A DNA stretch of 64,000 bases from Patescibacteria group bacterium (lineage in GTDB: Bacteria > Patescibacteriota > Patescibacteriia > GWA2-46-9), in NCBI GenBank assembly GCA_041660005.1, contig JBAZXG010000002.1:24356-88355 (forward strand). Reading direction: 5' to 3'. A program made the position numbers and the translations under genes. A model generated the notes under the pieces. It worked only from the letters and a program-made list of their open reading frames with translations, was not told the origin of the DNA and made no database searches. This document shows positions 47,975 through 60,145 of the stretch, piece after piece; positions within the stretch are counted from its first letter, which is position 1, and each line of letters begins with the position of its first letter.

Positions 47975-49816
47975 ATGGCCAACCTCTCCACCGCTCTGCG
48001 GACCGGGAACCTGACCGCACGCGAACGGTTCCTGCTCCTCATCCAAAACGACATCCAGCGCATGAAGACGGGAAAAGATATCCTGACGACGGCCGACAAA
48101 GCCGCGCTCGAGAATTGGCAAGCTAAAAATAACGTCGAAGCGTCTGAGTGGAACCGCCTGAACGAGGGGTGGAAACACACTGGACGCATGGACATTGAAG
48201 TTGAGTTCGCCTACCAGGAAGCGAACGCCGCACATCTCGCCAAGCTGCCAATCATCATTGAGCTCCTCACCTACCGGGCTGATCGAGAGATGAGCCGCTG
48301 TATCAATGTCCTGAAGCGATTGAAAAAAGTAAACCCAAAAGAAGCGAGCGTGATCATCGCCAAGCAGAAAGCCGCCAAACTCAAAGAAGGCATAGACGTC
48401 GAGTACGCGGTTTACCGGTTGGCCTTCGAGCGCCTCACTCCGGCAGAACAACAGCAAATGAAAGAGCTCTACGGCGACGTTGAAACTGACCATCAGTACC
48501 TCGACCAAGAGGAGGTTATCGCCAATCTGTACGGCAACCAAACCGAGCTCACCCCCGAGGCAAAAGATAAGCTCGCCACGCTGGTAGCCGAACGGAGCTA
48601 TAACGCATTTGCCAAAGAACATCAACTCTTCCATTACTTCGCCTGCATCCCGCTTGCTGAGGTGGCCCGATACTTCATCGCGCTAAAAAATATCATCCTG
48701 CCAAGCGAATCATCGCCTGCAGACGGAAAGGAAAAGGACCCATTCGCCGATCTCAATCAGTGCAACGAGTTGGCTGAAGCATTACAAACGTACGCGACGA
48801 CGCACCACACCACGGTCGAGAAGCTGCTCACGGAAGCGTGCCGCGTCTGGCTCGATGACGGCCTTCTTGAAACTTACACGCCGCTCGTCACGAGCAACAA
48901 TGCCGCGCTTTTTGAGCGGTGGCTCGCGGCCAAAATTGAAGCCAAGACGGTTATAACTCAACACGTTAGTGCTGGTGAACTCATGCTGCGCCATCGTACG
49001 GAGGAAGAAACAAGAAAGGAAAAGCTCTTGAGCAAAGACAGCTACGACCGTGAGTTAGCCACGGCACAAGCAGTACTTGAGGAGATCGGACGGGAGGCGA
49101 CAATCAAAGGAGAGCTTGATGAAAAATCAGCCTTCGAGACGTTCGCCGATCAGGTCATTACTGGCGAGAGTCTCTACGCATTCCCGGGCGACTACGAATT
49201 TGTGAAAAGCTTCAAGGAGCGAGCCGACATATACGACCCCAACCTCGGCATTGTCTACGCGGACGATGATCCAAACCACGCAGGCGAGCACTTGGACCAG
49301 GAACTCCTCATCTGCGACATAACCGACAGCGGCGACGCGAGCGTCTTTAGCCGCTACGGCATGGCGATATCGCTACTCGCAAACATCTTCGATAAAAAAA
49401 TGTTTTTTGAGGAGGTTGCCGAGGACGGAAAACTATTCCTTCACTTCAAGGATTCGCAGATTGAGGAGGCGTTCCGGGCAAGACAACAAAACCTCGTCGA
49501 TGGCTACGCCAAACTCCTCGCCTATCAAGCGGTGTTTAGCAAAGTGGCCGCCATCTACGAGGCCGACCTTGCCTACCACGTCACGGAACGGCTGACGGGG
49601 TTACGCGAAAATATTACCCAGCACAACGAGGCAGTTCAGCAAGCGACGAACCTCGGCGAACGGCTGCACCGAAAAGCAAAGTACGACTTCTTCCGGAGAC
49701 GTGACCGGCTATACTTGAAAGAGGATCTTGTTATAAATATCGATACGATCAAGCCTGACCAAGCAACCATGAAAGAGCACGAAGCGAAGTTGAAAAGGAT
49801 TTTTGGGAACTTCTAA
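47975..49816 (+). CDS. large hypothetical alpha-helical protein (island cargo)
   Basis: 613 aa, no P-loop or known motif recognised. Confidence 0.5.
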   Translation: MANLSTALRTGNLTARERFLLLIQNDIQRMKTGKDILTTADKAALENWQAKNNVEASEWNRLNEGWKHTGRMDIEVEFAYQEANAAHLAKLPIIIELLTYRADREMSRCINVLKRLKKVNPKEASVIIAKQKAAKLKEGIDVEYAVYRLAFERLTPAEQQQMKELYGDVETDHQYLDQEEVIANLYGNQTELTPEAKDKLATLVAERSYNAFAKEHQLFHYFACIPLAEVARYFIALKNIILPSESSPADGKEKDPFADLNQCNELAEALQTYATTHHTTVEKLLTEACRVWLDDGLLETYTPLVTSNNAALFERWLAAKIEAKTVITQHVSAGELMLRHRTEEETRKEKLLSKDSYDRELATAQAVLEEIGREATIKGELDEKSAFETFADQVITGESLYAFPGDYEFVKSFKERADIYDPNLGIVYADDDPNHAGEHLDQELLICDITDSGDASVFSRYGMAISLLANIFDKKMFFEEVAEDGKLFLHFKDSQIEEAFRARQQNLVDGYAKLLAYQAVFSKVAAIYEADLAYHVTERLTGLRENITQHNEAVQQATNLGERLHRKAKYDFFRRRDRLYLKEDLVINIDTIKPDQATMKEHEAKLKRIFGNF

Positions 49817-50029
49817 CTCATTAGTCTACCCGGACCACCTCGAGACCGGACCCAAATTGGTCAACGCCGATAAGGTTTTTGAAGCCTATTTATGATTATT
49901 GAAACAACGTACCCTAAGCACCCTGAAATATAATCTCCCAAACATTAATACCCACATAAGGTGTACGGAGAAAATAGACCACAGAAACGAAGTGTATTCC
50001 GTCCTCCACTTTCCATATTTCAGAACTTT

Positions 50030-51116
<1,087 letters not shown>

Positions 51117-51122
<6 letters not shown>

Positions 51123-51485
51123 ACATCCCCTATAACTAAAGTGCAGCAAGAAATACCGATTGTGCAAAAACTCTACGATCTCTACAAAACCTTCTACGGC
51201 TTCGCCGTGCTTTTTCCGAAGAAAGATAAGTACACACTCGGCGCAAAGTGTGAACAGTACATAATCAACACACTGGAATTGATACTGGCAGCAAGTGCAG
51301 TTACTCCGGCAGAGAAGCTTGGTCTACTACGTCAAGCAAACGTAAAGTTCGATACGCTTAAGGTATTTCTTCGATTATCCCGTGAGATTGGAGCAATCGA
51401 CGCGAAAAAATATCTTGTCCTCCAGAGAGAAATTCAAGAAATTGGTCGCATGCTTGGCGGCTGGCAACGGTCGCTCAGTGCATAA
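51117..51485 (+). CDS. avd: DGR accessory variability determinant Avd (four-helix-bundle protein)
   Basis: 122 aa; KLYDLYKTFYGFAVLFPKKDKYTLG...EIGRMLGGWQRS resembles Bordetella phage bAvd (..EVGRILGSWIAR) and the four-helix-bundle family; start ATG overlaps RT start in palindrome ATGCAT. Confidence 0.75.
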
Positions 51486-51544
51486 TCAACATCGGGGACC
51501 TGTAAGAACAGAATCCCCGAGCCAACTGCTATCGTAGACACAAT

Positions 51545-51663
51545 CCGAGGAAGGACACTCCACCAGAGTAGTTGTCGTTCGCATTCGCAAGATTCGTCCT
51601 GTTGTCGAACTCGAGCTTATCGTCGTTCGGGTTCAGGTAGAGCGAGTACTCAGCGGACTGCCA
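51545..51663 (-). repeat. DGR template repeat (TR)
   Basis: 119 nt about 89% identical to 52085..52203; 12 of 13 differences are at TR adenines (coding strand). Confidence 0.85.
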
Positions 51664-51965
51664 GAATATACCATTCCCCACCGATATGCACCGGCCCTCG
51701 GCCAGAGTTTCCTCTAGCTCCGAGCCTGAATTTTATTCGGTTCATTAGAGAACCCTAGAAAATGGTACGTAGTGTCTACGTGCTCTGCATACGCTCTGGC
51801 AATCAAGTATTTCCTTACCTGACAACTACCAGACTCTGATACATTGATGAGCATGAAGGATTTCGGCGGCCGTGATTAGATGAAGCCAACCACGGTACAT
51901 GAGCCTAATCTCAAAAGCAGTGTAGCATCAGTTCTCGTTTGTTGAAAAATTTTGAAAAAGGAAAA

Positions 51966-51990
51966 GCGGCATGACTGGAAATCATGCCGC
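51966..51990 (-). terminator. terminator hairpin for the DGR target gene (GCGGCATGA/TCATGCCGC), T-run on minus strand
   Basis: 9 bp stem, followed on minus strand by ttttcctttttcaaaattttt. Confidence 0.55.
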
Positions 51991-52080
51991 TGTCCGTAGG
52001 AGGGATCCGGAAGAAAACCGGAAGACCAAAAACCGAAATCCTTGGTCCAAGGTTCAAACTTCCGAAACCCGAAGTCCACA

Positions 52081-52983
52081 CTACCCGAGGAAGGACACCC
52101 CACCAGAGGAGTCGTCGCACGCATGCGCAAGAGCCGTCCTGTTGTCGAACTCGAGCTCCTCGTCGTGCGGGAGCAGGTAGAGCGAGTACTCAGCGGACTG
52201 CCACTGGTAGGCGGAGAGGTCGATCACCGGGGTGTTGTTGTCCCGGCAGATGACCTCTGGCCACATGATGGCTGAGAGGATGGCGTTGAAGCCGTTGAGG
52301 ATGAACCCCTCCGGCAACGTCGCCATCTGCTCACGCTGGGCGTGCACCGAGAATCCCTGCGTTGCACAAGGCAGCTCGATCGTGGCGATCGGACCTTCCT
52401 TGGCGCGAACGAGGAGAAGATCGAGCCGACTCTCCGGCACGACCGTCACTTGCCCTTCGAGCTGACCCCGACGGTGGTTGGTAAAACCACGACCAGGGAA
52501 CTCGGCCTTGTACGCACGCTCGAGCGCCGAGAGAAGAAACTCGAGCATCTGGCCGTGGTCGTGGACAACCATCTGCGGAACGATGATTGGCAGGTGCACA
52601 CCCATCCCGACGTTCACCACCGAGGAATCGTCGAGGATGACCATGAGACGGCCGACCTCGTCCTCGAACCAAGCCGCGTCGGGCAACACGATGTTGCCTT
52701 CGAAGGCGTGATCCATGCGCTCGCGACGAGCTGCGTAGTCAATGACCTCCGGCTGGAGCAGATGGTACGCGCGATTGGCGTCGCAGACCTTGGCCTTGAT
52801 GCCACGAGGTGGAATACGCCGACCGTGACGATCGAAGAACATCGAGATGACCTCTTCGATCGTTACCTTGGCACCGGCCAAGATTGCGTTCACGGCTCCG
52901 AGCCCGTCGCCGCCGTAGACGCATCCCAGCAGATCGATGAGCTTCTCGTTCTGATTCCCTGTCAAAGATCCGTACTTTGCCAT
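52081..52983 (-). CDS. DGR variable (target) protein; VR occupies the last about 40 codons
   Basis: 300 aa, GC-rich; C-terminus ...QSAEYSLYLLPHDEELEFDNRTALAHACDDSSGGVSFLG aligned to TR-encoded ...QSAEYSLYLNPNDDKLEFDNRTNLANANDNYSGGVSFLG (Asn AAC/AAT codons diversified). Confidence 0.8.
   Translation of the reverse strand: MAKYGSLTGNQNEKLIDLLGCVYGGDGLGAVNAILAGAKVTIEEVISMFFDRHGRRIPPRGIKAKVCDANRAYHLLQPEVIDYAARRERMDHAFEGNIVLPDAAWFEDEVGRLMVILDDSSVVNVGMGVHLPIIVPQMVVHDHGQMLEFLLSALERAYKAEFPGRGFTNHRRGQLEGQVTVVPESRLDLLLVRAKEGPIATIELPCATQGFSVHAQREQMATLPEGFILNGFNAILSAIMWPEVICRDNNTPVIDLSAYQWQSAEYSLYLLPHDEELEFDNRTALAHACDDSSGGVSFLG
52085..52203 (-). repeat. DGR variable repeat (VR) at the 3' end of the target gene
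   Basis: see TR; adenine-specific substitution pattern. Confidence 0.85.
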
Positions 52984-53402
52984 TGCTGGCCTCCGTTATC
53001 AGGCATCATGTGCCCGATGTCTTTAGCCAATTCCCTTGGCCGTTGGGGTCTTTTCCTCTACAGGATCAATCTAGAAATACTAGGGAAAAGACATTGCAAT
53101 GTAGCAGAAATGACAGGAAAAGTCAATGACTTTCGGGTGAATATTTAAATGGTTGATTCAATACAATCTGCTTGCACATATCACAATAAATAAAGGCATC
53201 AATAACTCCTAAAGTATAACCACCAAAAATCAGCCGGATGTAAAACATCAATACCCAGGCTTTCGCCTGGGTATTGATCCTAATGTGTATTCTGTGGGAA
53301 CGATGCTTCTCGATGCTCGTTCTTAACGTGATTGAAAATCCGGTGCCGTTTATTGGGTTCGTATAACCTATCCCACGCTAAGTCGGACAAATGCAGCAAC
53401 AC

Positions 53403-53867
53403 TTACCGCTCAAGAATTTGTTTCTTCTTGGCCTGAAATTCTACTTCCGTTAAGACACCCTTATCTCGAAGATCAGCATATTTCGCCAGCTCATCAACGC
53501 CACTAACCGCTGAACCTCCTCCTCGAATCTGGGCTATTCTTGCTTCGATAAGCTCTCTGACTTTTGCAGAGCGTTCATTGTTGTTATTGGTGATATGGAA
53601 GTTAATACTATTTTCGTCAGTGGCGGACTGAAAAAGACCGCTCTTTGCCTCTGAACCACCAACCAAGGTTAGCTGGAGATAGCCGGCAGTCATACCTGCT
53701 TTTTTGAGTTGCACGGCGACAATGGAGCTATAGGGAATTGTTTTTTCGCCTCGCAGCATCATACCGCCAAGGAGGAAACCCTTTACCCCTCGCTTTATAA
53801 CGACGCCAACATCGGTGAGGATAAGCGTTCCGTTATAGCCGCGAAATTCTTCTATTGATTCGTTCAT
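53403..53867 (-). CDS. DUF4429 (PH-like) domain protein with C-terminal SHOCT domain
   Basis: C-terminal LAKYADLRDKGVLTEVEFQAKKKQIL SHOCT motif. Confidence 0.55.
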   Translation of the reverse strand: MNESIEEFRGYNGTLILTDVGVVIKRGVKGFLLGGMMLRGEKTIPYSSIVAVQLKKAGMTAGYLQLTLVGGSEAKSGLFQSATDENSINFHITNNNNERSAKVRELIEARIAQIRGGGSAVSGVDELAKYADLRDKGVLTEVEFQAKKKQILER

Positions 53868-53878
53868 AAAAGAGTGTG

Positions 53879-54895
53879 TTATTTCTCCCAGGTTGTGCCG
53901 TCGGTAAAATGAACATGGTATGGCTCAACCTCGATCTTCGACGTGGTGTCGTGACCAAAGAGACTCCACGCATCCGAACCTGTTTTGCTGGGAGCAATAA
54001 GAGAACCTTGGCTAAGACCATTGAAGACGTTATCTCCCAGAAAGCTGGCGGGCTCCCCAAAACTGTTAAACATCCTGATATGCAGCTTGTATGCGTCGAT
54101 GGTTTTGTCTGACACATTCTTAATCGTCACATTCGCTTGAGGCATACCAATGATGTCTTTGGTAACACTGCTTTTCACAATCTCGAGAGGAATTGGTTCT
54201 TGTGCGATTGTTGCGGCTGATGGCTTAGACGAAACTACTGGCGTTGTTGTCGCCGTAGATGAATCTAATTTATTTGTGCTAGTTGATGAAGCAGCGGCTA
54301 CAATCACCAGAACAACCAAGACCGCGACCGTGATTGCAGTCTTATGCCGCGTTATGTTTTCCTCCCACTTACTTAAGTGGGGTTGTGCCAGTGGTTCTCC
54401 TTCCATACGATGCGTGTATCGAGAAGCAAGGAGGTGCATAATAATACCGCCGGACAACCCAACAACAAACCCTAGTCCAACCGCTAATGTCCCGCCTATC
54501 GCCGTACCAATAGCTGCGCCAGCTTGCGCTGCCCCGCTCGTGTTCCTCACCGCCGCCGCGCCGACATGAAACATTATAGCGAGTGCAGAGATGGGCAGAA
54601 GAAAGAAGCCAATCTCTGTGGCCCGAAACAAATCCTTCAGTACTTTATTCTTGTTCGTATCCGACCACACATGCAGAATTAGCAGAGCCCAAAAAATTAT
54701 AAACCCGAGACCCATGGCTCGGTTTCCAGACATCCACGCCCAATTTTGAGTAAATACAGCGGCAGGAAGGAGAGTGGCCAATATCTTCGTTGGCAAGAAT
54801 CGATTCTTCGATTGAGGAGTGTGTTGCTCCATAAAAATAAAGAATAAAAAAATAAGCACCTCGGGTATGACGAGACGCTTTGGGTATATACACAA
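53879..54895 (-). CDS. membrane protein with 5-6 TM helices and C-terminal extracytoplasmic domain, hypothetical
   Basis: 338 aa. Confidence 0.45.
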   Translation of the reverse strand: MCIYPKRLVIPEVLIFLFFIFMEQHTPQSKNRFLPTKILATLLPAAVFTQNWAWMSGNRAMGLGFIIFWALLILHVWSDTNKNKVLKDLFRATEIGFFLLPISALAIMFHVGAAAVRNTSGAAQAGAAIGTAIGGTLAVGLGFVVGLSGGIIMHLLASRYTHRMEGEPLAQPHLSKWEENITRHKTAITVAVLVVLVIVAAASSTSTNKLDSSTATTTPVVSSKPSAATIAQEPIPLEIVKSSVTKDIIGMPQANVTIKNVSDKTIDAYKLHIRMFNSFGEPASFLGDNVFNGLSQGSLIAPSKTGSDAWSLFGHDTTSKIEVEPYHVHFTDGTTWEK

Positions 54896-55085
54896 AGCCC
54901 CCCGCCAGCGATAGCCTTACGGCTACCCATACCCGTTTCCAGGTATGACCGGTAAGGGTGCTCTGACGAGGAGCCCTTTATTCCTTACCGGTTTTCGGCC
55001 ATGCCCAGAGCGAACTCTGAGTTTAGGCCATACTCAAATTGTGCTCACATGGTAGCAGGGAAACCCCTATAAATAAAGGGTCTTT

Positions 55086-56540
55086 ATGGGGACTTACCTA
55101 CAAGTTACCTACAGCTCGTTTAGGGACTTTTTGCGGATTCCAGTGATTCTAGCCGCTCTGGACTCCCTAGAGGGGTTGCGTCATCAATGTGGCTATATGA
55201 ACCACGGTAATACAACGGGGCCGGACGGAGCGGACGCCCCAACCAAGGAACAACCGCTCCCTATTAACGTGCGGTACTGCCTGTACGCAAGGAAAAGTAC
55301 CGAATCGGAGGAACGCCAGATCCTCTCCATTGATTCGCAGATTAAAGAGATGCTGGAATTGGCTGAGCGGGAGGGGTTGGAGGTAGCCGAGATAAGGCGC
55401 GAGAGCCACTCGGCTAAGAGTTCTGGTGCGAGAAAGGTGTTCAACGAAATCCTCGTTGACATTAGAGGGGGCCGCTTCAATGGACTTCTAACCTGGGCTC
55501 CAGATAGGCTTGCGCGTAATGCGGGTGACCTAGGGTCGTTAGTTGACCTTATTGACCAGAAAACGCTTATTGAAATACGCACGTTCAGCCAACGGTTCAC
55601 GAACAACCCGAATGAGAAATTCCTCCTCATGATTCTCGGCAGCCAGGCAAAGCTCGAGAACGATAACCGTGGCATTAATGTCAAGCGCGGTATGAAGACC
55701 CGCTGCGAAATGGGACTACGGCCGAACGTCGCACCGACCGGATACTTGAATGAGAAACGGACGGATAAAAAGTGCCACGCTATCGTTGACCCCGAACGTG
55801 GGCCCATCATCAAACAAATGTTTGAGAAAGTAGCGAACGAACACTGGTCAGGACGGAAGCTCTACCACTGGTTGAAGTTCGAGTTGAACTTTAAGACCAA
55901 AGGAAATAAAAACTTGTCGCTCTCCAATATTTACATCATCATCAATAATCCCTTCTACTACGGTGTCTTCGAATTCCCGCGAGGCAGCGGTAACTGGTAT
56001 ACCGGAATCCATACGCCACTAGTCGCGAAGGAGCTCTACGACCAAGCCCATACCCAGTTAAAGCGTGACCGCATTGTCCGAGCTGAGATTAAAGAATTCG
56101 CCTTCACGAAGCTCCTAGCCTGTGGCGATTGCGGGTCTGGAATCTCGGCTGACGAGAAGTACAAGCATCTCAAAGATGGCACCATGGCACGGTATGTGTA
56201 CTACGGCTGCACGCGAGCAAGAAACCTGCACTGCAAAGGTGGATACATCCGCGAGGAGGAACTGATCAATCAAATGATTGCCATCATTGATCAGCTCGAC
56301 ATCAACGAGATTGGCATGCGGTACAAGTTTGACGAAGAGATGGCAAGGCTCGCCAAGTTCCAAAAGAACTTCTACGGCGCAGCTGGCGGCACCGCACCTA
56401 AACTTGAGAACGTGGACTTGAAGGGCTACGCCAAATACTTACTGCGCGAGGGCAGCGTCATTGAAAAACGTGAACTCATGGCCTGCATCAAAAGCAAGCT
56501 CGTGCTGACGCGGAAAGTGTTGACGCTGCAAACACAGTAA
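55086..56540 (+). CDS. large serine recombinase/integrase (start probably at internal Met about 55197)
   Basis: resolvase catalytic domain YARKSTESEERQILSIDSQ, recombinase domain, zinc ribbon CGDCGS...YYGCTRARNLHCKGG, C-terminal coiled coil. Confidence 0.8.
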   Translation: MGTYLQVTYSSFRDFLRIPVILAALDSLEGLRHQCGYMNHGNTTGPDGADAPTKEQPLPINVRYCLYARKSTESEERQILSIDSQIKEMLELAEREGLEVAEIRRESHSAKSSGARKVFNEILVDIRGGRFNGLLTWAPDRLARNAGDLGSLVDLIDQKTLIEIRTFSQRFTNNPNEKFLLMILGSQAKLENDNRGINVKRGMKTRCEMGLRPNVAPTGYLNEKRTDKKCHAIVDPERGPIIKQMFEKVANEHWSGRKLYHWLKFELNFKTKGNKNLSLSNIYIIINNPFYYGVFEFPRGSGNWYTGIHTPLVAKELYDQAHTQLKRDRIVRAEIKEFAFTKLLACGDCGSGISADEKYKHLKDGTMARYVYYGCTRARNLHCKGGYIREEELINQMIAIIDQLDINEIGMRYKFDEEMARLAKFQKNFYGAAGGTAPKLENVDLKGYAKYLLREGSVIEKRELMACIKSKLVLTRKVLTLQTQ

Positions 56541-56573
56541 GACCACCTTCGTCAGCCAGACTGTCTATTGATA

Positions 56574-58019
56574 TTATCCCCAAATTGAATTGATAACGTC
56601 TGTACCGAGAAAATCTGCTAATTGCCCCTCTGGTTTTTTATCTCCAATACACTTAGCTACCCGTTGGGTCCAGGGAACATTTTTCGAGCTGAGTATTTGT
56701 GATAATTGCAAAATTACATCTTTAATATCAGCATTTTTTCTGTCCCAGGAATCACATTGATCCAATTGAGTCTTTTTCTCTCCATAATTTTGGCTTTCTT
56801 CTTTAACTTTTGTCTTCGCCGCTTCCCAATTCTCAAAACCGAGCGACGTCAAGACTTCATCGGATAGAAAAAGATTCTCGCTTTCGCGACATTCTAGTTT
56901 GACATACTTTATATTTGTCTGTGGATTGTTCGCGTCAGCAACCGGAAGGGTTTGATCACCATCAAGTAGCGCAAAGCCAACGGCTTTGGTTTGGTCTGTC
57001 CTTAGGCTGGCAAATATTTTTTCCAGTGTTTTTTGATACCGCTTAACTTCGTCCGCCCCACTACAAGGAATAACCGCCAGCTTCACATTGTTATATCTTG
57101 GCACTTGACTCCAAATTTTATTGTCATCATCTCCCTCTACCAATAATAACGGCGCACTGAACAGGGGCCCCATGAGAGCATGCCCGCCGAGACACGTTGA
57201 GAGCTCCTGCAAAATTTTGTCGAACTGTACCGCTTTCTGTTCGCTGACAGAGTTATTGAGATAGATGACACTTGTCCTCTCACCGCCATGATAGCCGAGT
57301 GCCGACAGAAGAGTGGTACTATGAGAGGCGATAATCATTTGCACCTTATATTTACTCAAAAGTTGTACCAAAAAATGGCCGAGGTGCTGTTGTAGATCGG
57401 GATGTAAGTGTGTGTCTGGTTCGTCAATCAGAAGAACTCGTTCGCTCTGATTATCCAACTCCCATATCGCGCAAATCGTCAACAAATCCAATGCGAGAGT
57501 CAGTATTTCTGCTTCGCCACTGCTTAATGTATTGACGCTTGAAACGCGATCATCGCCGTGAATCCGCCTGAATTCATAAGGAGGGTTTTCTCCTGTAATG
57601 GAGAACTGAAAGTCAGGAAGTAGAACCTGTAAAAAATTTTCAATATCCCCAAGATCGACTGAGCTGGCAGTCGCTCGTCCGGCAACATTTCCAATTTTAA
57701 TTAATAAGGCTTGTATCCGCGAGACTGCTTCCTGACGGTAAGTAGACGACAAATTTTGCTGTCGACGGTTTGCTCTACCGGGGGCCGTTAGTTCTTCCTG
57801 CGTTATTCCAACTTCGTGCGTGATGTCTCCAGCTCTTTCGGGGGAAGTATAGTGATAGACGTTCTGATTACTATTTCGTAAAGTACGCAACAACTGACTC
57901 TTGCCAGAACCGTTTTTCCCAAACAAAATTGTTATCTCATTTAAGTCCTTGAGTTCCCACTGATTTCCGCCAAGATAGTCAGGTCTTATTATATTCAATT
58001 CTTGAAAATATTTTGCCAT
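56574..58019 (-). CDS. OLD-family ABC-type ATPase fused to TOPRIM/DUF4435-like nuclease domain (PARIS/AriAB- or OLD-like defence candidate)
   Basis: Walker A GKNGSGKSQ, LLIDEPDTHLHPDL (DEP..HLHP hallmark), H-loop ASHS; C-terminal LLLVEGDDDNKIW ... GFALLDGD TOPRIM-like acidic motifs. Confidence 0.65.
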   Translation of the reverse strand: MAKYFQELNIIRPDYLGGNQWELKDLNEITILFGKNGSGKSQLLRTLRNSNQNVYHYTSPERAGDITHEVGITQEELTAPGRANRRQQNLSSTYRQEAVSRIQALLIKIGNVAGRATASSVDLGDIENFLQVLLPDFQFSITGENPPYEFRRIHGDDRVSSVNTLSSGEAEILTLALDLLTICAIWELDNQSERVLLIDEPDTHLHPDLQQHLGHFLVQLLSKYKVQMIIASHSTTLLSALGYHGGERTSVIYLNNSVSEQKAVQFDKILQELSTCLGGHALMGPLFSAPLLLVEGDDDNKIWSQVPRYNNVKLAVIPCSGADEVKRYQKTLEKIFASLRTDQTKAVGFALLDGDQTLPVADANNPQTNIKYVKLECRESENLFLSDEVLTSLGFENWEAAKTKVKEESQNYGEKKTQLDQCDSWDRKNADIKDVILQLSQILSSKNVPWTQRVAKCIGDKKPEGQLADFLGTDVINSIWG

Positions 58020-58189
58020 ATATAAATTTAAGAACAGGTCTATCTTAGCTCAAATCTCACAATAAACAAAAAAGACCGGGTGACCGGTCGTTTTTGTTTT
58101 GGTATGCCAATAACATGCAGTAGCGTGGGGGAACCGTCTCGGTCGCGCTGACCTATCGACTGACTCGGTCCCTCGATACTAAATGTTGT

Positions 58190-58279
58190 TGGCGGAGAGG
58201 GAGGGATTCGAACCCTCGAGGCCCTTGCGGGCCTACCGCTTTTCGAGAGCGGCACCTTCAACCACTCGGCCACCTCTCC
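58190..58279 (-). tRNA. tRNA-Ser (anticodon CGA), class II
   Basis: manual fold: GGAGAGG acceptor, GCCGAGTGGTTGAAGG D-arm, anticodon loop CT-CGA-AA, long variable arm GGCCCGCAAGGGCC, TTCGAAT, discriminator G, CCA. Confidence 0.85.
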
Positions 58280-58377
58280 ATATTTCTCGGCAAAGCCTCG
58301 GTCAAAAAATTGAGGCCTCTGGTTGCCGGGGCGGTCTTTTACCGCCCGTTTAATCCTGCGCCACTCGGATTAAACCC

Positions 58378-58394
58378 ACTCGGCCACCTCTCCA
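58378..58394 (-). repeat. 17 nt direct copy of the tRNA-Ser 5' end (GGAGAGGTGGCCGAGT..) about 100 bp upstream of the gene
   Basis: actcggccacctctcca identical to 58264..58280. Confidence 0.7.
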
Positions 58395-58522
58395 TAGATT
58401 GGCTATTTTGTTTTGCTCACCTTTTTTTATCCGTCCGGGTAGCGCTTTTTCAACTACCTCCAAACAATAAAGTATTCGCACGCTACCACGCTCTTCTATA
58501 GTCGACAAGAGCGATGCGCTGT

Positions 58523-60145
58523 TTAATTCAATGGGCGCAATCGAATGCCAACAACTCCAAGGTAATTCTCGTCTTCTTCGCTATACCGCTCTCGCAGTAC
58601 TGCCATACCATGCTCATGGTTATCAAAGCCAAGCTCTGCTGGATGAAACGCTGCTAGAAGCTCTGTGAAACTTGGTCGTGGTGTTACCTCAATAACTTCT
58701 GCGCGCATGCACTCATAGGTATTATGGTGCGGATAACAGAGTAGGAGATCGCCAACTTGAATATCGCGTTGTTGTCGGTCGAAAAGTCTCGCCTCAACAC
58801 GCTTCAGCCCACGCATCAGCTGGTTATACGATTCGCTGCCGACATTCAAGACATGCACTCGACGACTCTCCAGAAGTGGGATTGCCATAATAACCCAAAA
58901 AAGAATTGAAAGGTCGTTTTTAAAATAGGGAACATCAACAAGACCATGAACGAGGAGCGCCACCATCGCTGCCATAGCGGCAATGCTTAATGCCTGCCCG
59001 CGTCGCTGCCACGCCGTGTGAAAGAAAGCGCCGAGCAACCAGACAAATACCAAGAGACCAGCAACCCCAAGTTCGGTCCAGGCGTTCAAGAATACATTGT
59101 GAGGGTAGAGAAAAATTTCTAACTTATAAGGTGACACGTCATGTCGCCATTCTTGATGATAGGGAACAAGCGCACTTTGGTAACCCGCGAGTCCAGACCC
59201 AACAATAGGATGGTCGCGAAGGAGTGCCAGGGTTTCTTGCCAAACAACAATGCGCATTTTCCCTGAAGGGGAGTGCAGTGTTACTTGGTTGAGCAAGGCC
59301 ACCCGTGTTGGTGGTACGACAAAAATAGCAATCAAAGCTAGGGTAGCAACCCCAACAAGTATGACACGACGGCTCCCTGTGAGCGCCAAGAAAGCGCCAA
59401 AAAGAATACCCACCACAACACCGACCCAGGCGCCTTTGGTCACGGAGAAAACAATTGCTACGAGACCAAACAAAAACACTACCATCAACCACAAAAGTCG
59501 TGACCCGTGTTTGGCGCTATAGAGCACCCAGGTGCCGTAAAGAGCAATGACTGGCGCTAAAAATAAACCAACGGCATTCGGATAAGAAAAGAAGCTCGTT
59601 ACCTTGAACGACTCGGCGAGCGCATACGGTTCAGGAATAAAAAGACCCGTCACTTTTTGAAACCAGGCACCAAGTGCTATAGCAAGGGCTGCAATGCCGA
59701 GGGCATAGACTGGCCAGTGACGCTCTGGCGTGCCCCGAAATTCAACAACAAAAATAGCAAAAACAAGTAACGGCTCAATAAAATATGCTTTCCAAATGCC
59801 GAGCGCACTAAATAGGTTAGGGGAAATAACAACGCTTACCGTTGCAACAAGTAGCCAAAGGAGAATCGGAAAAAAATAGGGGCGAAACGGATTACTCTCT
59901 GACAAAGCTAACGATGGTCGCGGTAAAGGCAATCCCTGATGCTCTTGGTACTTCAAGAAAAACCATGTAATGGCAACCGTCCAAATACTCACCTCGAGCA
60001 AAGTAAACGGAACCCCAAACACAGTGAACCGAATAAGGTAGGATGGTAATAAAACAATTAAAAGCGAGAGTGCTAAACGCGCCGAGCGATAGGTTAGATA
60101 GGCAAAGAAAAAAATGTAGAGCGTAAGAAGTAACGGCATGGTCAT
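58523..60145 (-). CDS. O-antigen ligase/polymerase-like (Wzy_C) polytopic membrane protein with C-terminal ASCH (PUA-like) domain
   Basis: 540 aa; 10-12 TM helices with large periplasmic loop typical of Wzy_C; C-terminal about 110 aa soluble domain resembling ASCH. Confidence 0.55.
   Translation of the reverse strand: MTMPLLLTLYIFFFAYLTYRSARLALSLLIVLLPSYLIRFTVFGVPFTLLEVSIWTVAITWFFLKYQEHQGLPLPRPSLALSESNPFRPYFFPILLWLLVATVSVVISPNLFSALGIWKAYFIEPLLVFAIFVVEFRGTPERHWPVYALGIAALAIALGAWFQKVTGLFIPEPYALAESFKVTSFFSYPNAVGLFLAPVIALYGTWVLYSAKHGSRLLWLMVVFLFGLVAIVFSVTKGAWVGVVVGILFGAFLALTGSRRVILVGVATLALIAIFVVPPTRVALLNQVTLHSPSGKMRIVVWQETLALLRDHPIVGSGLAGYQSALVPYHQEWRHDVSPYKLEIFLYPHNVFLNAWTELGVAGLLVFVWLLGAFFHTAWQRRGQALSIAAMAAMVALLVHGLVDVPYFKNDLSILFWVIMAIPLLESRRVHVLNVGSESYNQLMRGLKRVEARLFDRQQRDIQVGDLLLCYPHHNTYECMRAEVIEVTPRPSFTELLAAFHPAELGFDNHEHGMAVLRERYSEEDENYLGVVGIRLRPLN

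What the first reader, a model, noticed from the sequence alone, without database searches (positions are those of the whole stretch)
56574..58019. OLD/PARIS-like single-gene defence candidate adjacent to the island integrase
A 481 aa protein combines an ABC-type ATPase with the OLD-family signatures (GKNGSGKS, DEPDTHLHP, ASHS) and a C-terminal domain with TOPRIM/DUF4435-like acidic motifs (LLVEGDDD, GFALLDGD). Fused ATPase-TOPRIM proteins of this kind act as anti-phage systems (OLD class 1, fused AriA-AriB of PARIS). Its position at the island edge next to the serine recombinase and tRNA is the typical location of defence cargo.
Basis: partly seen in the sequence, partly recalled or inferred. 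Interest (0 to 1): 0.55.

Follow-up and report, generated by a model that had tools for sequence, protein, structure and literature searches.

The report
Compact single-gene ATPase–TOPRIM defence candidate
A 481-residue protein joins an ATP-driven switch to a metal-dependent nuclease in a stripped-down relative of the OLD and PARIS anti-phage systems, carried with a serine recombinase beside a tRNA gene in a Patescibacteria genome; it is a credible but untested phage-defence gene and not a new kind of system.

The parts
56574..58019 (-). Complete gene for the 481-aa ATPase-TOPRIM protein (stop codon 56574-56576)
   Evidence: ORF list; identical public protein P0001 and 835 homologs; full-length model pLDDT 90.5, pTM 0.83
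57225..58019 (-). N-terminal ABC-type ATPase head (aa 1-265) with only a ~75-aa four-helix insertion (aa ~62-135)
   Evidence: Pfam AAA_21 9.6e-17 and AAA_15 4.1e-15; Foldseek matches to PtuA, Eco8 OLD, GajA, Rad50 and SMC heads; PDB profile hits to PtuA, AriA and TsOLD that skip their long insertions; secondary structure
57897..57920 (-). Walker A GKNGSGKS (aa 34-41; G34, N36, G39, K40 and S41 invariant)
57513..57527 (-). ABC signature LSSGE (aa 165-169; S166, G168 and E169 invariant)
57399..57437 (-). Walker B plus D-loop VLLIDEPDTHLHP (aa 195-207; D199, E200, P201, D202, H204, H206 and P207 invariant)
57318..57329 (-). H-loop ASHS (aa 231-234; H233 invariant)
57159..57194 (-). Inter-domain block CLGGHALMGPLF (aa 276-287), the most conserved stretch of the core family; modelled with lower confidence; absent from the distant E. 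coli relative
   Evidence: invariant L277, G278, G279, H280, L282, M283, G284 and F287; pLDDT dip; gap in the hhalign alignment to the E. coli protein
56865..57158 (-). TOPRIM core (aa 288-385), beta-alpha-beta-alpha-beta-beta
57123..57146 (-). TOPRIM glutamate motif LLVEGDDD (E295 invariant; D297-D299 nearly invariant); proposed equivalent of AriB E26 and D30
   Evidence: AriB residues from PMC11464382
56955..56969 (-). DxD motif LLDGD (D353 and D355 invariant); proposed equivalent of AriB D88 and E90
   Evidence: kept as DGD in the E. coli relative
56874..56885 (-). ESEN motif (E379, E381 and N382 invariant in the core family; only E381 and N382 kept in the E. coli relative); proposed equivalent of AriB E122
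56577..56864 (-). C-terminal helical bundle (aa 386-481) following the TOPRIM core, as in DUF4435/AriB
58074..58089 (-). Terminator-like hairpin between tRNA-Ser and the ATPase gene, so the gene is probably its own transcription unit
   Evidence: sequence
58190..58279 (-). tRNA-Ser(cga), 170 bp upstream of the gene on the same strand
   Evidence: ARAGORN; Rfam tRNA 58.9 bits
55086..56540 (+). Large serine recombinase, convergent with the ATPase gene across a 33-bp gap; likely true start ATG at 55197; catalytic-serine region intact
   Evidence: Resolvase, Recombinase and Zn_ribbon_recom domains; 64% and 57% identical to the recombinases paired with the homologs in L010 and L007; N-terminus
55173..55192 (+). 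20-nt site GGGTTGCGTCATCAATGTGG just upstream of the recombinase start, identical in L010 and in 10 metagenome contigs; candidate recombinase operator or att-derived site

Best explanation
The gene encodes a self-contained ABC-ATPase-TOPRIM nuclease of the OLD/PARIS superfamily. It most likely acts as a stand-alone anti-phage (abortive-infection type) defence gene, carried with a large serine recombinase as a ~3-kb two-gene cassette placed just downstream of tRNA-Ser. Shown: the ATPase has all catalytic motifs intact. The C-terminal domain has an OLD/AriB-type TOPRIM fold, and its invariant acidic cluster (E295, D299, D353, D355, E381) is spaced like the two-metal site of AriB (E26, D30, D88, E90, E122). 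The family has a constant ~480-aa architecture, no partner gene, a patchy distribution across phyla, and neighbourhoods rich in mobile-element and defence genes. Inferred: two ATPase heads form the usual ATP-sandwich dimer and hold the TOPRIM sites inactive. An infection cue changes the ATP-binding or hydrolysis state. Because ATPase and nuclease are one chain, the nuclease is activated by a conformational change, not by release as in two-gene PARIS, and it then cuts nucleic acid by two-metal catalysis. I lean (about 55:45) to an RNA/tRNA target with translation arrest, as for AriB, over DNA nicking as in class 1 OLD. The C-terminal domain matches AriB/AriAB models and the AriB structure slightly better and shares its post-TOPRIM helical extension. 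Rough likelihoods: ATPase-TOPRIM identity about 0.9, defence role about 0.65, tRNA target about 0.35.
Confidence: 0.45

Rival explanations
1. Same protein and same defence role, but it works like a class 1 OLD nuclease: a stand-alone ATP-regulated DNA nickase or 5'-3' exonuclease that attacks replicating phage DNA (as Vc OLD does) or responds to loss of RecBCD (as P2 Old does), not a tRNA nuclease.
Against: The PADLOC Old model scores only 48.5 bits against 91.4 for AriAB and is hit by 1 of 31 isolated C-terminal domains, against 19 for AriB. AriB is the top Foldseek hit and no OLD chain appears among the 50 listed. The dimerisation domain inserted in the ATPase of TsOLD and GajA is absent. 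The family's diagnostic motifs are absent from the held part of a published OLD-family dataset.
Confidence: 0.3
2. The gene mainly serves the mobile cassette, not the host. It could act as an addiction or stabilisation module, or as a weapon against competing mobile elements, helping the serine-recombinase cassette persist, with phage defence at most a by-product.
For: The gene is tightly paired and convergent with a large serine recombinase in the window, L007 and L010 (33-bp gap in the window, a 4-nt overlap in L007), with 56-64% identical recombinases. Other members sit beside unrelated serine recombinases, tyrosine integrases and IS elements. Related recombinases carrying the same 20-nt upstream site lie next to other nuclease or restriction cargo.
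Against: Only about 10-15% of loci have a recombinase or transposase within two genes, and the closest homologs (80-82% identical, L001, L006) have none. In L007 the recombinase has lost its catalytic N-terminus while the ATPase-TOPRIM gene stays intact, so the gene is kept after mobility is lost. No antitoxin-like partner is conserved.
Confidence: 0.12
3. It is a housekeeping DNA-repair or chromosome-maintenance ATPase (RecF/SbcC/SMC-like) or a cell-cycle nickase like the archaeal OLD-family protein Cran1, unrelated to conflict with phages.
For: The ATPase head resembles Rad50 and SMC heads structurally, with weak SMC_N and RecF hits. Cran1 shows that an OLD-family ATPase-nickase can have a cellular role (PMC12796447).
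Against: RecF scores 24.8 bits against a cut-off of 172, and SMC_N 28.6 against 40. The gene is present in only about 0.23% of species genomes and 0.5% of E. coli genomes. Identity of 42-58% between distant phyla and archaea indicates horizontal transfer, unlike the vertically inherited Cran1 clade. Its neighbourhoods are variable and rich in mobile elements.
Confidence: 0.04

Closest known systems
Merged AriAB of PARIS (OLD class 4, the two single-gene 'merged' clades; Rousset 2022; Burman/Deep 2024, PMC11464382)
   Different: It is 481 aa, against profile lengths of about 570-694 for AriAB. The ATPase has about 80 aa where AriA has about 285 (Walker A to aa 324), so the coiled coil and the IS1/IS2 elements that build the hexamer pores and bind the trigger and AriB are missing. 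HMM scores are only 43-91 bits, and Pfam DUF4435 scores 16.6 bits against a cut-off of 27. Activation by release of AriB is impossible in a fused chain. The trigger and the tRNA target are untested.
Class 1 OLD nucleases (P2 Old, Thermus scotoductus OLD 6P74, Vibrio cholerae Vc OLD)
   Different: It has no dimerisation domain inserted in the ATPase and is about 50-100 aa shorter overall, yet has a longer helical region after the TOPRIM. The PADLOC Old and Pfam OLD-like_TOPRIM scores are weak or sub-threshold. The family's motifs were not found in the held part of a published OLD dataset.
PH0156 / DUF3226 (PDB 2P62, Pyrococcus horikoshii)
   Different: PH0156 is a stand-alone protein with no ATPase, and its function is unknown.
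Other AAA_15/21 ATPase defence systems (Septu and retron PtuA, Gabija GajA, retron Eco8 OLD, AbiL, Menshen NsnB, MADS mad3)
   Same: The ATPase head is closest in sequence to PtuA among solved structures (1.6e-11) and hits all these PADLOC models at 1e-12 to 1e-18.
   Different: None of their partner genes (PtuB HNH, GajB helicase, retron RT/ncRNA, AbiLii) is conserved next to this family. The RT 5.4 kb away in the window belongs to a DGR.

Membership tests
OLD family, class 1 | N-terminal ABC ATPase with Walker A, signature, Walker B and H-loop | tested here: met
   All motifs are present and invariant; AAA_21/AAA_15 above the Pfam cut-offs; ABC-head fold
OLD family, class 1 | C-terminal TOPRIM fold with a conserved acidic metal-binding cluster | tested here: met
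OLD family, class 1 | Recognised by the OLD-like_TOPRIM Pfam model (PF20469) at its gathering score | tested here: not met
   15.6-17.2 bits against a cut-off of 23.2 for this protein; sub-threshold in 21 of 31 members, best E 1.6e-4
OLD family, class 1 | Dimerisation domain inserted into the ATPase (TsOLD, PMC10568477) | tested here: not met
   Only four short helices (aa ~62-135) lie between Walker A and the signature motif; profile alignments to TsOLD, AriA and PtuA skip their insertions
OLD family, class 1 | Single gene in variable neighbourhoods, with no conserved partner | tested here: met
   No neighbour family occurs in more than 5 of 75 loci
OLD family, class 1 | ATP-modulated DNA nicking or 5'-3' exonuclease activity | not testable with these tools
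   Requires biochemistry
PARIS (OLD class 4), merged AriAB | Fused ABC ATPase plus DUF4435 TOPRIM in one polypeptide, best matched by AriAB models | tested here: inconclusive
   AriAB PDLC02981 is the top hit (1.4e-26, 91 bits) but covers only profile positions 270-537 of 694. Isolated C-terminal domains hit AriB or AriAB at 1e-3 to 6e-7. The PADLOC and DefenseFinder pipelines with their own thresholds were not run.
PARIS (OLD class 4), merged AriAB | DUF4435 (PF14491) at the Pfam gathering score | tested here: not met
   14.9-16.6 bits against a cut-off of 27; 17 of 31 members hit it sub-threshold
PARIS (OLD class 4), merged AriAB | AriB catalytic residues E26, D30, D88, E90 and E122 | tested here: met
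   E295, D299, D353, D355 and E381 are invariant, with spacings 4/54/2/26 against 4/58/2/32 in AriB. The equivalence rests on spacing and fold; no residue-level superposition was made.
PARIS (OLD class 4), merged AriAB | AriA-type coiled coil with IS1/IS2 insertions forming the hexameric trigger-sensing scaffold | tested here: not met
   Residues 41-119 here correspond to AriA residues ~40-323; there is no coiled coil in the model
PARIS (OLD class 4), merged AriAB | Triggered by anti-restriction proteins (Ocr, Ptr); cleaves tRNA-Lys/Thr/Asn | not testable with these tools
   Requires phage and RNA assays
Gabija GajA (OLD class 2) | Adjacent UvrD/PcrA-like helicase GajB, and a helical insert in the TOPRIM | tested here: not met
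   No helicase family is among the recurrent neighbours; the window neighbours are a recombinase and a tRNA; the model shows no TOPRIM insert
Retron-associated OLD (class 3, Eco8-type) | Adjacent retron reverse transcriptase and ncRNA | tested here: not met
   NCBIfam retron Eco8 effector scores 38 bits against a cut-off of 250. The nearest RT is 5.4 kb away and belongs to a DGR with bAvd and a TR/VR pair. Only 2 of 149 neighbours in 75 loci are RTs.
RecF/SbcC/SMC repair ATPases | Match to RecF or SMC family models at the curated cut-off, and near-universal vertical distribution | tested here: not met
   RecF 24.8 bits against 172; SMC_N 28.6 against 40; found in 428 of 185,579 species genomes

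The most novel reading that the evidence does not exclude
The ~480-aa family is a minimal single-chain PARIS. A bare ABC head, with no coiled-coil scaffold, both senses a phage cue (possibly an anti-restriction protein, given the homolog placed directly after an R-M operon) and switches on an AriB-like tRNA nuclease within the same chain. In genome-reduced Patescibacteria it spreads as one of the smallest known integrative elements, a 2.6-3.1 kb cassette of serine recombinase plus one defence gene that lands beside tRNA genes.
Probability: 0.2. Interest if true: 0.6.

Novelty: new variant of a known kind. Interest (0 to 1): 0.4.

Why it matters
If it is active, this family would show the smallest architecture that can still couple an ABC-ATPase sensor to a TOPRIM effector. 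It lacks the insertion domains that carry oligomerisation and trigger recognition in OLD, Gabija and PARIS, which would bear on how these systems sense infection. It would also add a defence gene to Patescibacteria; from my own knowledge, not tested here, few defence systems are described for these bacteria. It would document a very small serine-recombinase cassette that carries defence cargo. A distant full-length relative in E. coli (WP_000868467.1, 28 of 5,426 complete genomes) makes the idea directly testable in a standard host. Even so, it lies inside a well-known superfamily in which many uncharacterised clades are already recognised (U1-U11 in PMC12796447). A specialist would find it useful but not surprising.

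Tried and rejected
1. I looked for att-type direct repeats flanking the cassette, using repeat finder on 49000-58600 and local alignment of both flanks in the window and L007 against shuffles. Nothing exceeded chance, which is expected for serine recombinases, so the borders remain undefined.
2. I looked for synteny with an empty site. No fetched locus shares the window's flanking genes in order.
3. A sequence-profile search of the C-terminal domain against PDB found only spurious helical-bundle hits, so the TOPRIM call had to rest on fold comparison.
5. I searched for the family's motifs and the E. coli accession in the supplements of the OLD-phylogeny paper and found none in the held text. 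The PARIS paper has no held supplements, so placement relative to clades U1-U11 or the merged AriAB clades could not be tested.
6. The accession WP_000868467 occurs in no paper in the library.
7. Protein searches of phage and plasmid collections gave no phage hit, and the only 'plasmid' hit is a mislabelled E. coli chromosome.
8. No second copy of the 20-nt recombinase-proximal site exists in the window.
9. I considered a retron or class 3 reading because of the nearby RT and rejected it: that RT belongs to a DGR.
10. I considered reading the invariant CLGGHALMGPLF block as part of the universal active site. I rejected this because the block is missing in the E. coli relative.

Full report
**Observation.** The window has an ORF at 56574-58019 on the minus strand, starting with ATG and encoding 481 aa. 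An identical protein is already called in a public Patescibacteria MAG, where NCBI names it 'AAA family ATPase' and IMG 'predicted ATP-dependent endonuclease...'. The neighbours are as described. tRNA-Ser(cga) lies at 58190-58279 (-), 170 bp upstream. A large serine recombinase with Resolvase, Recombinase and Zn-ribbon domains lies convergent at 55086-56540. A terminator-like hairpin at 58074-58089 separates the tRNA from the gene. The one correction is that the three ATPase motifs are typical of the whole AAA_15/21 ABC group and are not specific to OLD.

**ATPase half.** Pfam gives AAA_21 (9.6e-17) and AAA_15 (4.1e-15), while SMC_N and RecF are far below their cut-offs. The full-length AlphaFold model is confident (pLDDT 90.5). 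Its Foldseek matches are ABC/SMC heads of defence ATPases (PtuA from Septu and retrons, Eco8 OLD, GajA) and of Rad50/SMC. A family profile searched against PDB sequences ranks PtuA (1.6e-11), AriA (6.6e-9), Thermus OLD (4.3e-7) and Eco8 OLD (1.1e-5). The head is unusually small. Only about 75 residues in four short helices (aa ~62-135) sit between Walker A and the signature motif. In the profile alignments, residues 41-119 here stand opposite about 285 residues of AriA and a similar stretch of PtuA, and about 80 more residues are present in TsOLD. Those missing segments are the dimerisation domain of OLD and GajA (PMC10568477) and the coiled coil with IS1/IS2 that builds the trigger-sensing AriA hexamer (PMC11464382).

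**Catalytic residues.** In an alignment of 51 family members, E295, D353, D355, E379, E381 and N382 are invariant and D297-D299 nearly so. The spacing E295-D299-D353-D355-E381 (4/54/2/26) mirrors the AriB metal ligands E26-D30-D88-E90-E122 (4/58/2/32; PMC11464382). The domain is an OLD/AriB-type TOPRIM, though a divergent one.

**The family.** A profile search of 1.84 billion representative proteins finds 247 clusters (at 50% identity) with E <= 1e-30, nearly all 470-520 aa and aligned end to end. The compact architecture is thus a stable trait of a discrete family and not a truncation. For most distant members the fused AriAB model is again the best PADLOC hit, but at only 43-84 bits, and Pfam still sees no C-terminal domain in them. 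In one genome per species, 428 of 185,579 genomes encode a relative. These span Patescibacteria, Chloroflexota, Proteobacteria, Acidobacteriota, Planctomycetota, Nitrospirota, Bacteroidota and Verrucomicrobiota, and also Nitrosopumilales, Halobacteriales and Thermoplasmatota archaea, at 42-58% identity. That pattern indicates horizontal transfer.

**E. coli relative.** No phage record and no true plasmid carries the gene. A distant full-length relative does exist in E. coli: WP_000868467.1, annotated 'AAA family ATPase', 26% identical, hhalign probability 99.95% and E = 3.7e-38. It is present in 28 of 5,426 complete genomes, as a lone gene beside an IS remnant between yfgI and guaA. It keeps EGxDD, DGD and xxEN but lacks the CLGGHALMGPLF block. 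It matches no named PADLOC system and appears in no paper in the library.

**Genomic context.** All-against-all clustering of ORFs from about 80 loci found no conserved partner gene. Among 149 first and second neighbours from 75 loci, the commonest Pfam families are Resolvase/Recombinase (5), rve transposase (3), phage integrase (3), DNA methyltransferases (2 + 2) and reverse transcriptases (2). PADLOC recognises DRT/UG4 and retron-type RTs, type II and III methyltransferases, a phospholipase effector and several PDC candidates among the same neighbours. In L001-L003 an 80%-identical homolog starts 1 nt after an EcoRV-type controller, endonuclease and methyltransferase operon.

**tRNA adjacency.** This recurs across loci. 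L007 has tRNA-Gln 40 bp upstream of the gene and a convergent recombinase downstream, the same layout as the window. L046 has tRNA-Gly, then a tyrosine integrase, then the gene. L001 and L006 lie after tRNA-Ala. L008 and L019 have a tRNA abutting the recombinase. L045 and L054 have a tRNA within about 300 bp.

**The recombinase pair.** The window, L007 and L010 share a genuinely conserved pair, with recombinases 56-64% identical and ATPases 54-75% identical. Other loci have unrelated serine recombinases (24-33% identical), which implies independent captures. In L007 the recombinase has lost its catalytic N-terminus while the ATPase-TOPRIM gene is intact.

**A recombinase-linked DNA site.** A 20-nt site, GGGTTGCGTCATCAATGTGG (55173-55192), lies just upstream of the likely true recombinase start and is identical in L010. 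It occurs in 10 metagenome contigs. Seven of these carry a 62-72% identical recombinase but no ATPase-TOPRIM gene; one of those recombinases sits beside a type I HsdR. The recombinase lineage therefore carries varied, partly defence-related cargo, and this gene is one such cargo. I could not define the cassette borders, because no flanking repeats exceed chance, as expected for serine recombinases.

**Mechanism.** Shown: a catalytically complete ABC ATPase is fused to a TOPRIM with a complete two-metal acidic cluster; the gene stands alone; it is horizontally mobile; and it sits in mobile-element and defence-rich contexts. Inferred from established knowledge of ABC ATPases and of OLD, Gabija and PARIS (PMC10568477, PMC11464382, PMC12409363, PMC12392090): ATP-dependent head-to-head dimerisation holds the nuclease in check, an infection cue changes the nucleotide state, and the TOPRIM then cleaves nucleic acid and aborts infection. 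The two domains are one chain and the AriA scaffold is absent. Activation must therefore be conformational, not by effector release, and the sensing surface cannot be the AriA pores or the OLD dimerisation domain. The invariant and flexibly modelled CLGGHALMGPLF linker is a candidate latch, but that is speculation.

**Nuclease target.** The target is unresolved. I lean slightly to RNA/tRNA, as for AriB, because AriB/AriAB models and the AriB structure match a little better and the post-TOPRIM helical extension is shared. DNA nicking as in class 1 OLD is almost as likely. A purely selfish cassette-maintenance role is possible but disfavoured: most members lack a recombinase, and the gene outlives its recombinase in L007. 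A housekeeping role (RecF/SbcC-like or Cran1-like) is excluded in practice by the sparse, patchy distribution.

**Comparison and novelty.** By the context-based scheme of Dot et al., as summarised in PMC10568477 and PMC12796447, a lone ATPase-TOPRIM gene is 'class 1 OLD'. By model similarity it is nearest to merged AriAB (class 4). It fails defining features of both: it has no ATPase insertion or dimerisation domain, no coiled coil, and sub-threshold TOPRIM/DUF4435 scores. I therefore file it as a new, compact variant within the OLD/PARIS superfamily and not as a member of either class. At least 11 uncharacterised OLD-family clades are already recognised. This family's motifs were not found in the held part of that dataset, but the file may be incomplete, so I make no claim that the family is outside those clades. 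Interest is moderate. The finding is a solid and testable defence candidate with an instructive minimal architecture, inside a well-known kind of system.

Noticed in passing
window 50030-52983: A diversity-generating retroelement lies 3.6-6.5 kb from the finding. It comprises reverse-transcriptase ORFs (50030-50431 and 50517-51167, minus strand), a bAvd accessory gene (51024-51485, +, 1.1e-18), and a 126-nt template/variable repeat pair (51538-51663 and 52078-52203, 88% identical). The variable copy forms the 3' end of a GC-rich 300-aa ORF with no Pfam match (52081-52983, -). Nearly all mismatches fall at T on the + strand, which is A on the coding strand, the adenine-specific DGR signature.
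   Followed up: partly
window 50537-50583: The DGR reverse-transcriptase gene is split into two ORFs at a simple-sequence tract, a C12 run followed by about 17 CT repeats as read on the minus strand. This could be a slipped-strand on/off switch for the DGR or an assembly or sequencing error.
   Followed up: no
window 58262-58282 and 58376-58396: There is an exact 21-nt duplicate of the 5' end of tRNA-Ser(cga) (CCACTCGGCCACCTCTCCATA on the + strand), lying 114 nt further upstream of the tRNA. Neither ARAGORN nor Rfam calls a second RNA there. It may be a tRNA fragment left by an earlier integration.
   Followed up: partly
window 55173-55192; L010 3137-3156; L087-L096: A 20-nt site, GGGTTGCGTCATCAATGTGG, lies just upstream of the serine recombinase start and is identical in L010 and in 10 metagenome contigs. 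In 7 of these it precedes a 62-72% identical recombinase. In L088 and L091 it lies antisense inside a 1046-aa PLD-helicase-DUF3427 gene with no recombinase nearby, which might be an unoccupied target site or a coincidence.
   Followed up: partly
L007 11452-12531 (= L004/L005): The recombinase paired with the 75%-identical homolog is 5'-truncated: a stop codon lies just before 'ESHSAK', so the catalytic-serine region is gone. It abuts a thioredoxin-reductase gene, while the ATPase-TOPRIM gene 40 bp after tRNA-Gln is intact. This looks like an immobilised cassette.
   Followed up: partly
L001-L003, 5860-9446: An 80%-identical homolog starts 1 nt after an EcoRV-type restriction-modification operon (HTH controller, endonuclease, Dam-class methyltransferase) that begins about 215 bp after tRNA-Ala. 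In L001 both the endonuclease and the methyltransferase are split into two ORFs each, whereas both are whole in L003 and L002 differs only in having a shorter methyltransferase ORF (349 vs 360 aa), suggesting decay of the R-M system in L001 while the ATPase-TOPRIM gene stays whole.
   Followed up: no
L086 12061-13530 (E. coli UPEC132, NZ_CP040456.1): A distant full-length family member in E. coli (WP_000868467.1, 489 aa, annotated only as 'AAA family ATPase') sits in a small islet between yfgI and guaA, next to an integrase-core pseudogene and an orphan response regulator. It is found in 28 of 5,426 complete genomes, always chromosomal, and matches no named PADLOC system.
   Followed up: partly
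protein P0267 (1153 aa): One distant family member carries the ATPase-TOPRIM module (aa ~529-1010) behind an N-terminal Ulp1/RickCE-like cysteine-peptidase domain, a fusion that hints at a different sensor or effector arrangement.
   Followed up: no
window 53403-54895: Between the recombinase and the DGR lie a SHOCT/DUF4429 protein (53403-53867, -) and a 338-aa multi-pass membrane protein with a weak DUF5780-like C-terminus (53879-54895, -). Whether they belong to the same mobile island is unknown.
   Followed up: no
NZ_CP134663.1 (PLSDB): A 4.9-Mb E. coli record is filed in the plasmid collection as 'plasmid unnamed1'. It is evidently a chromosome, so the 'plasmid' hit is not evidence of plasmid carriage.
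   Followed up: yes
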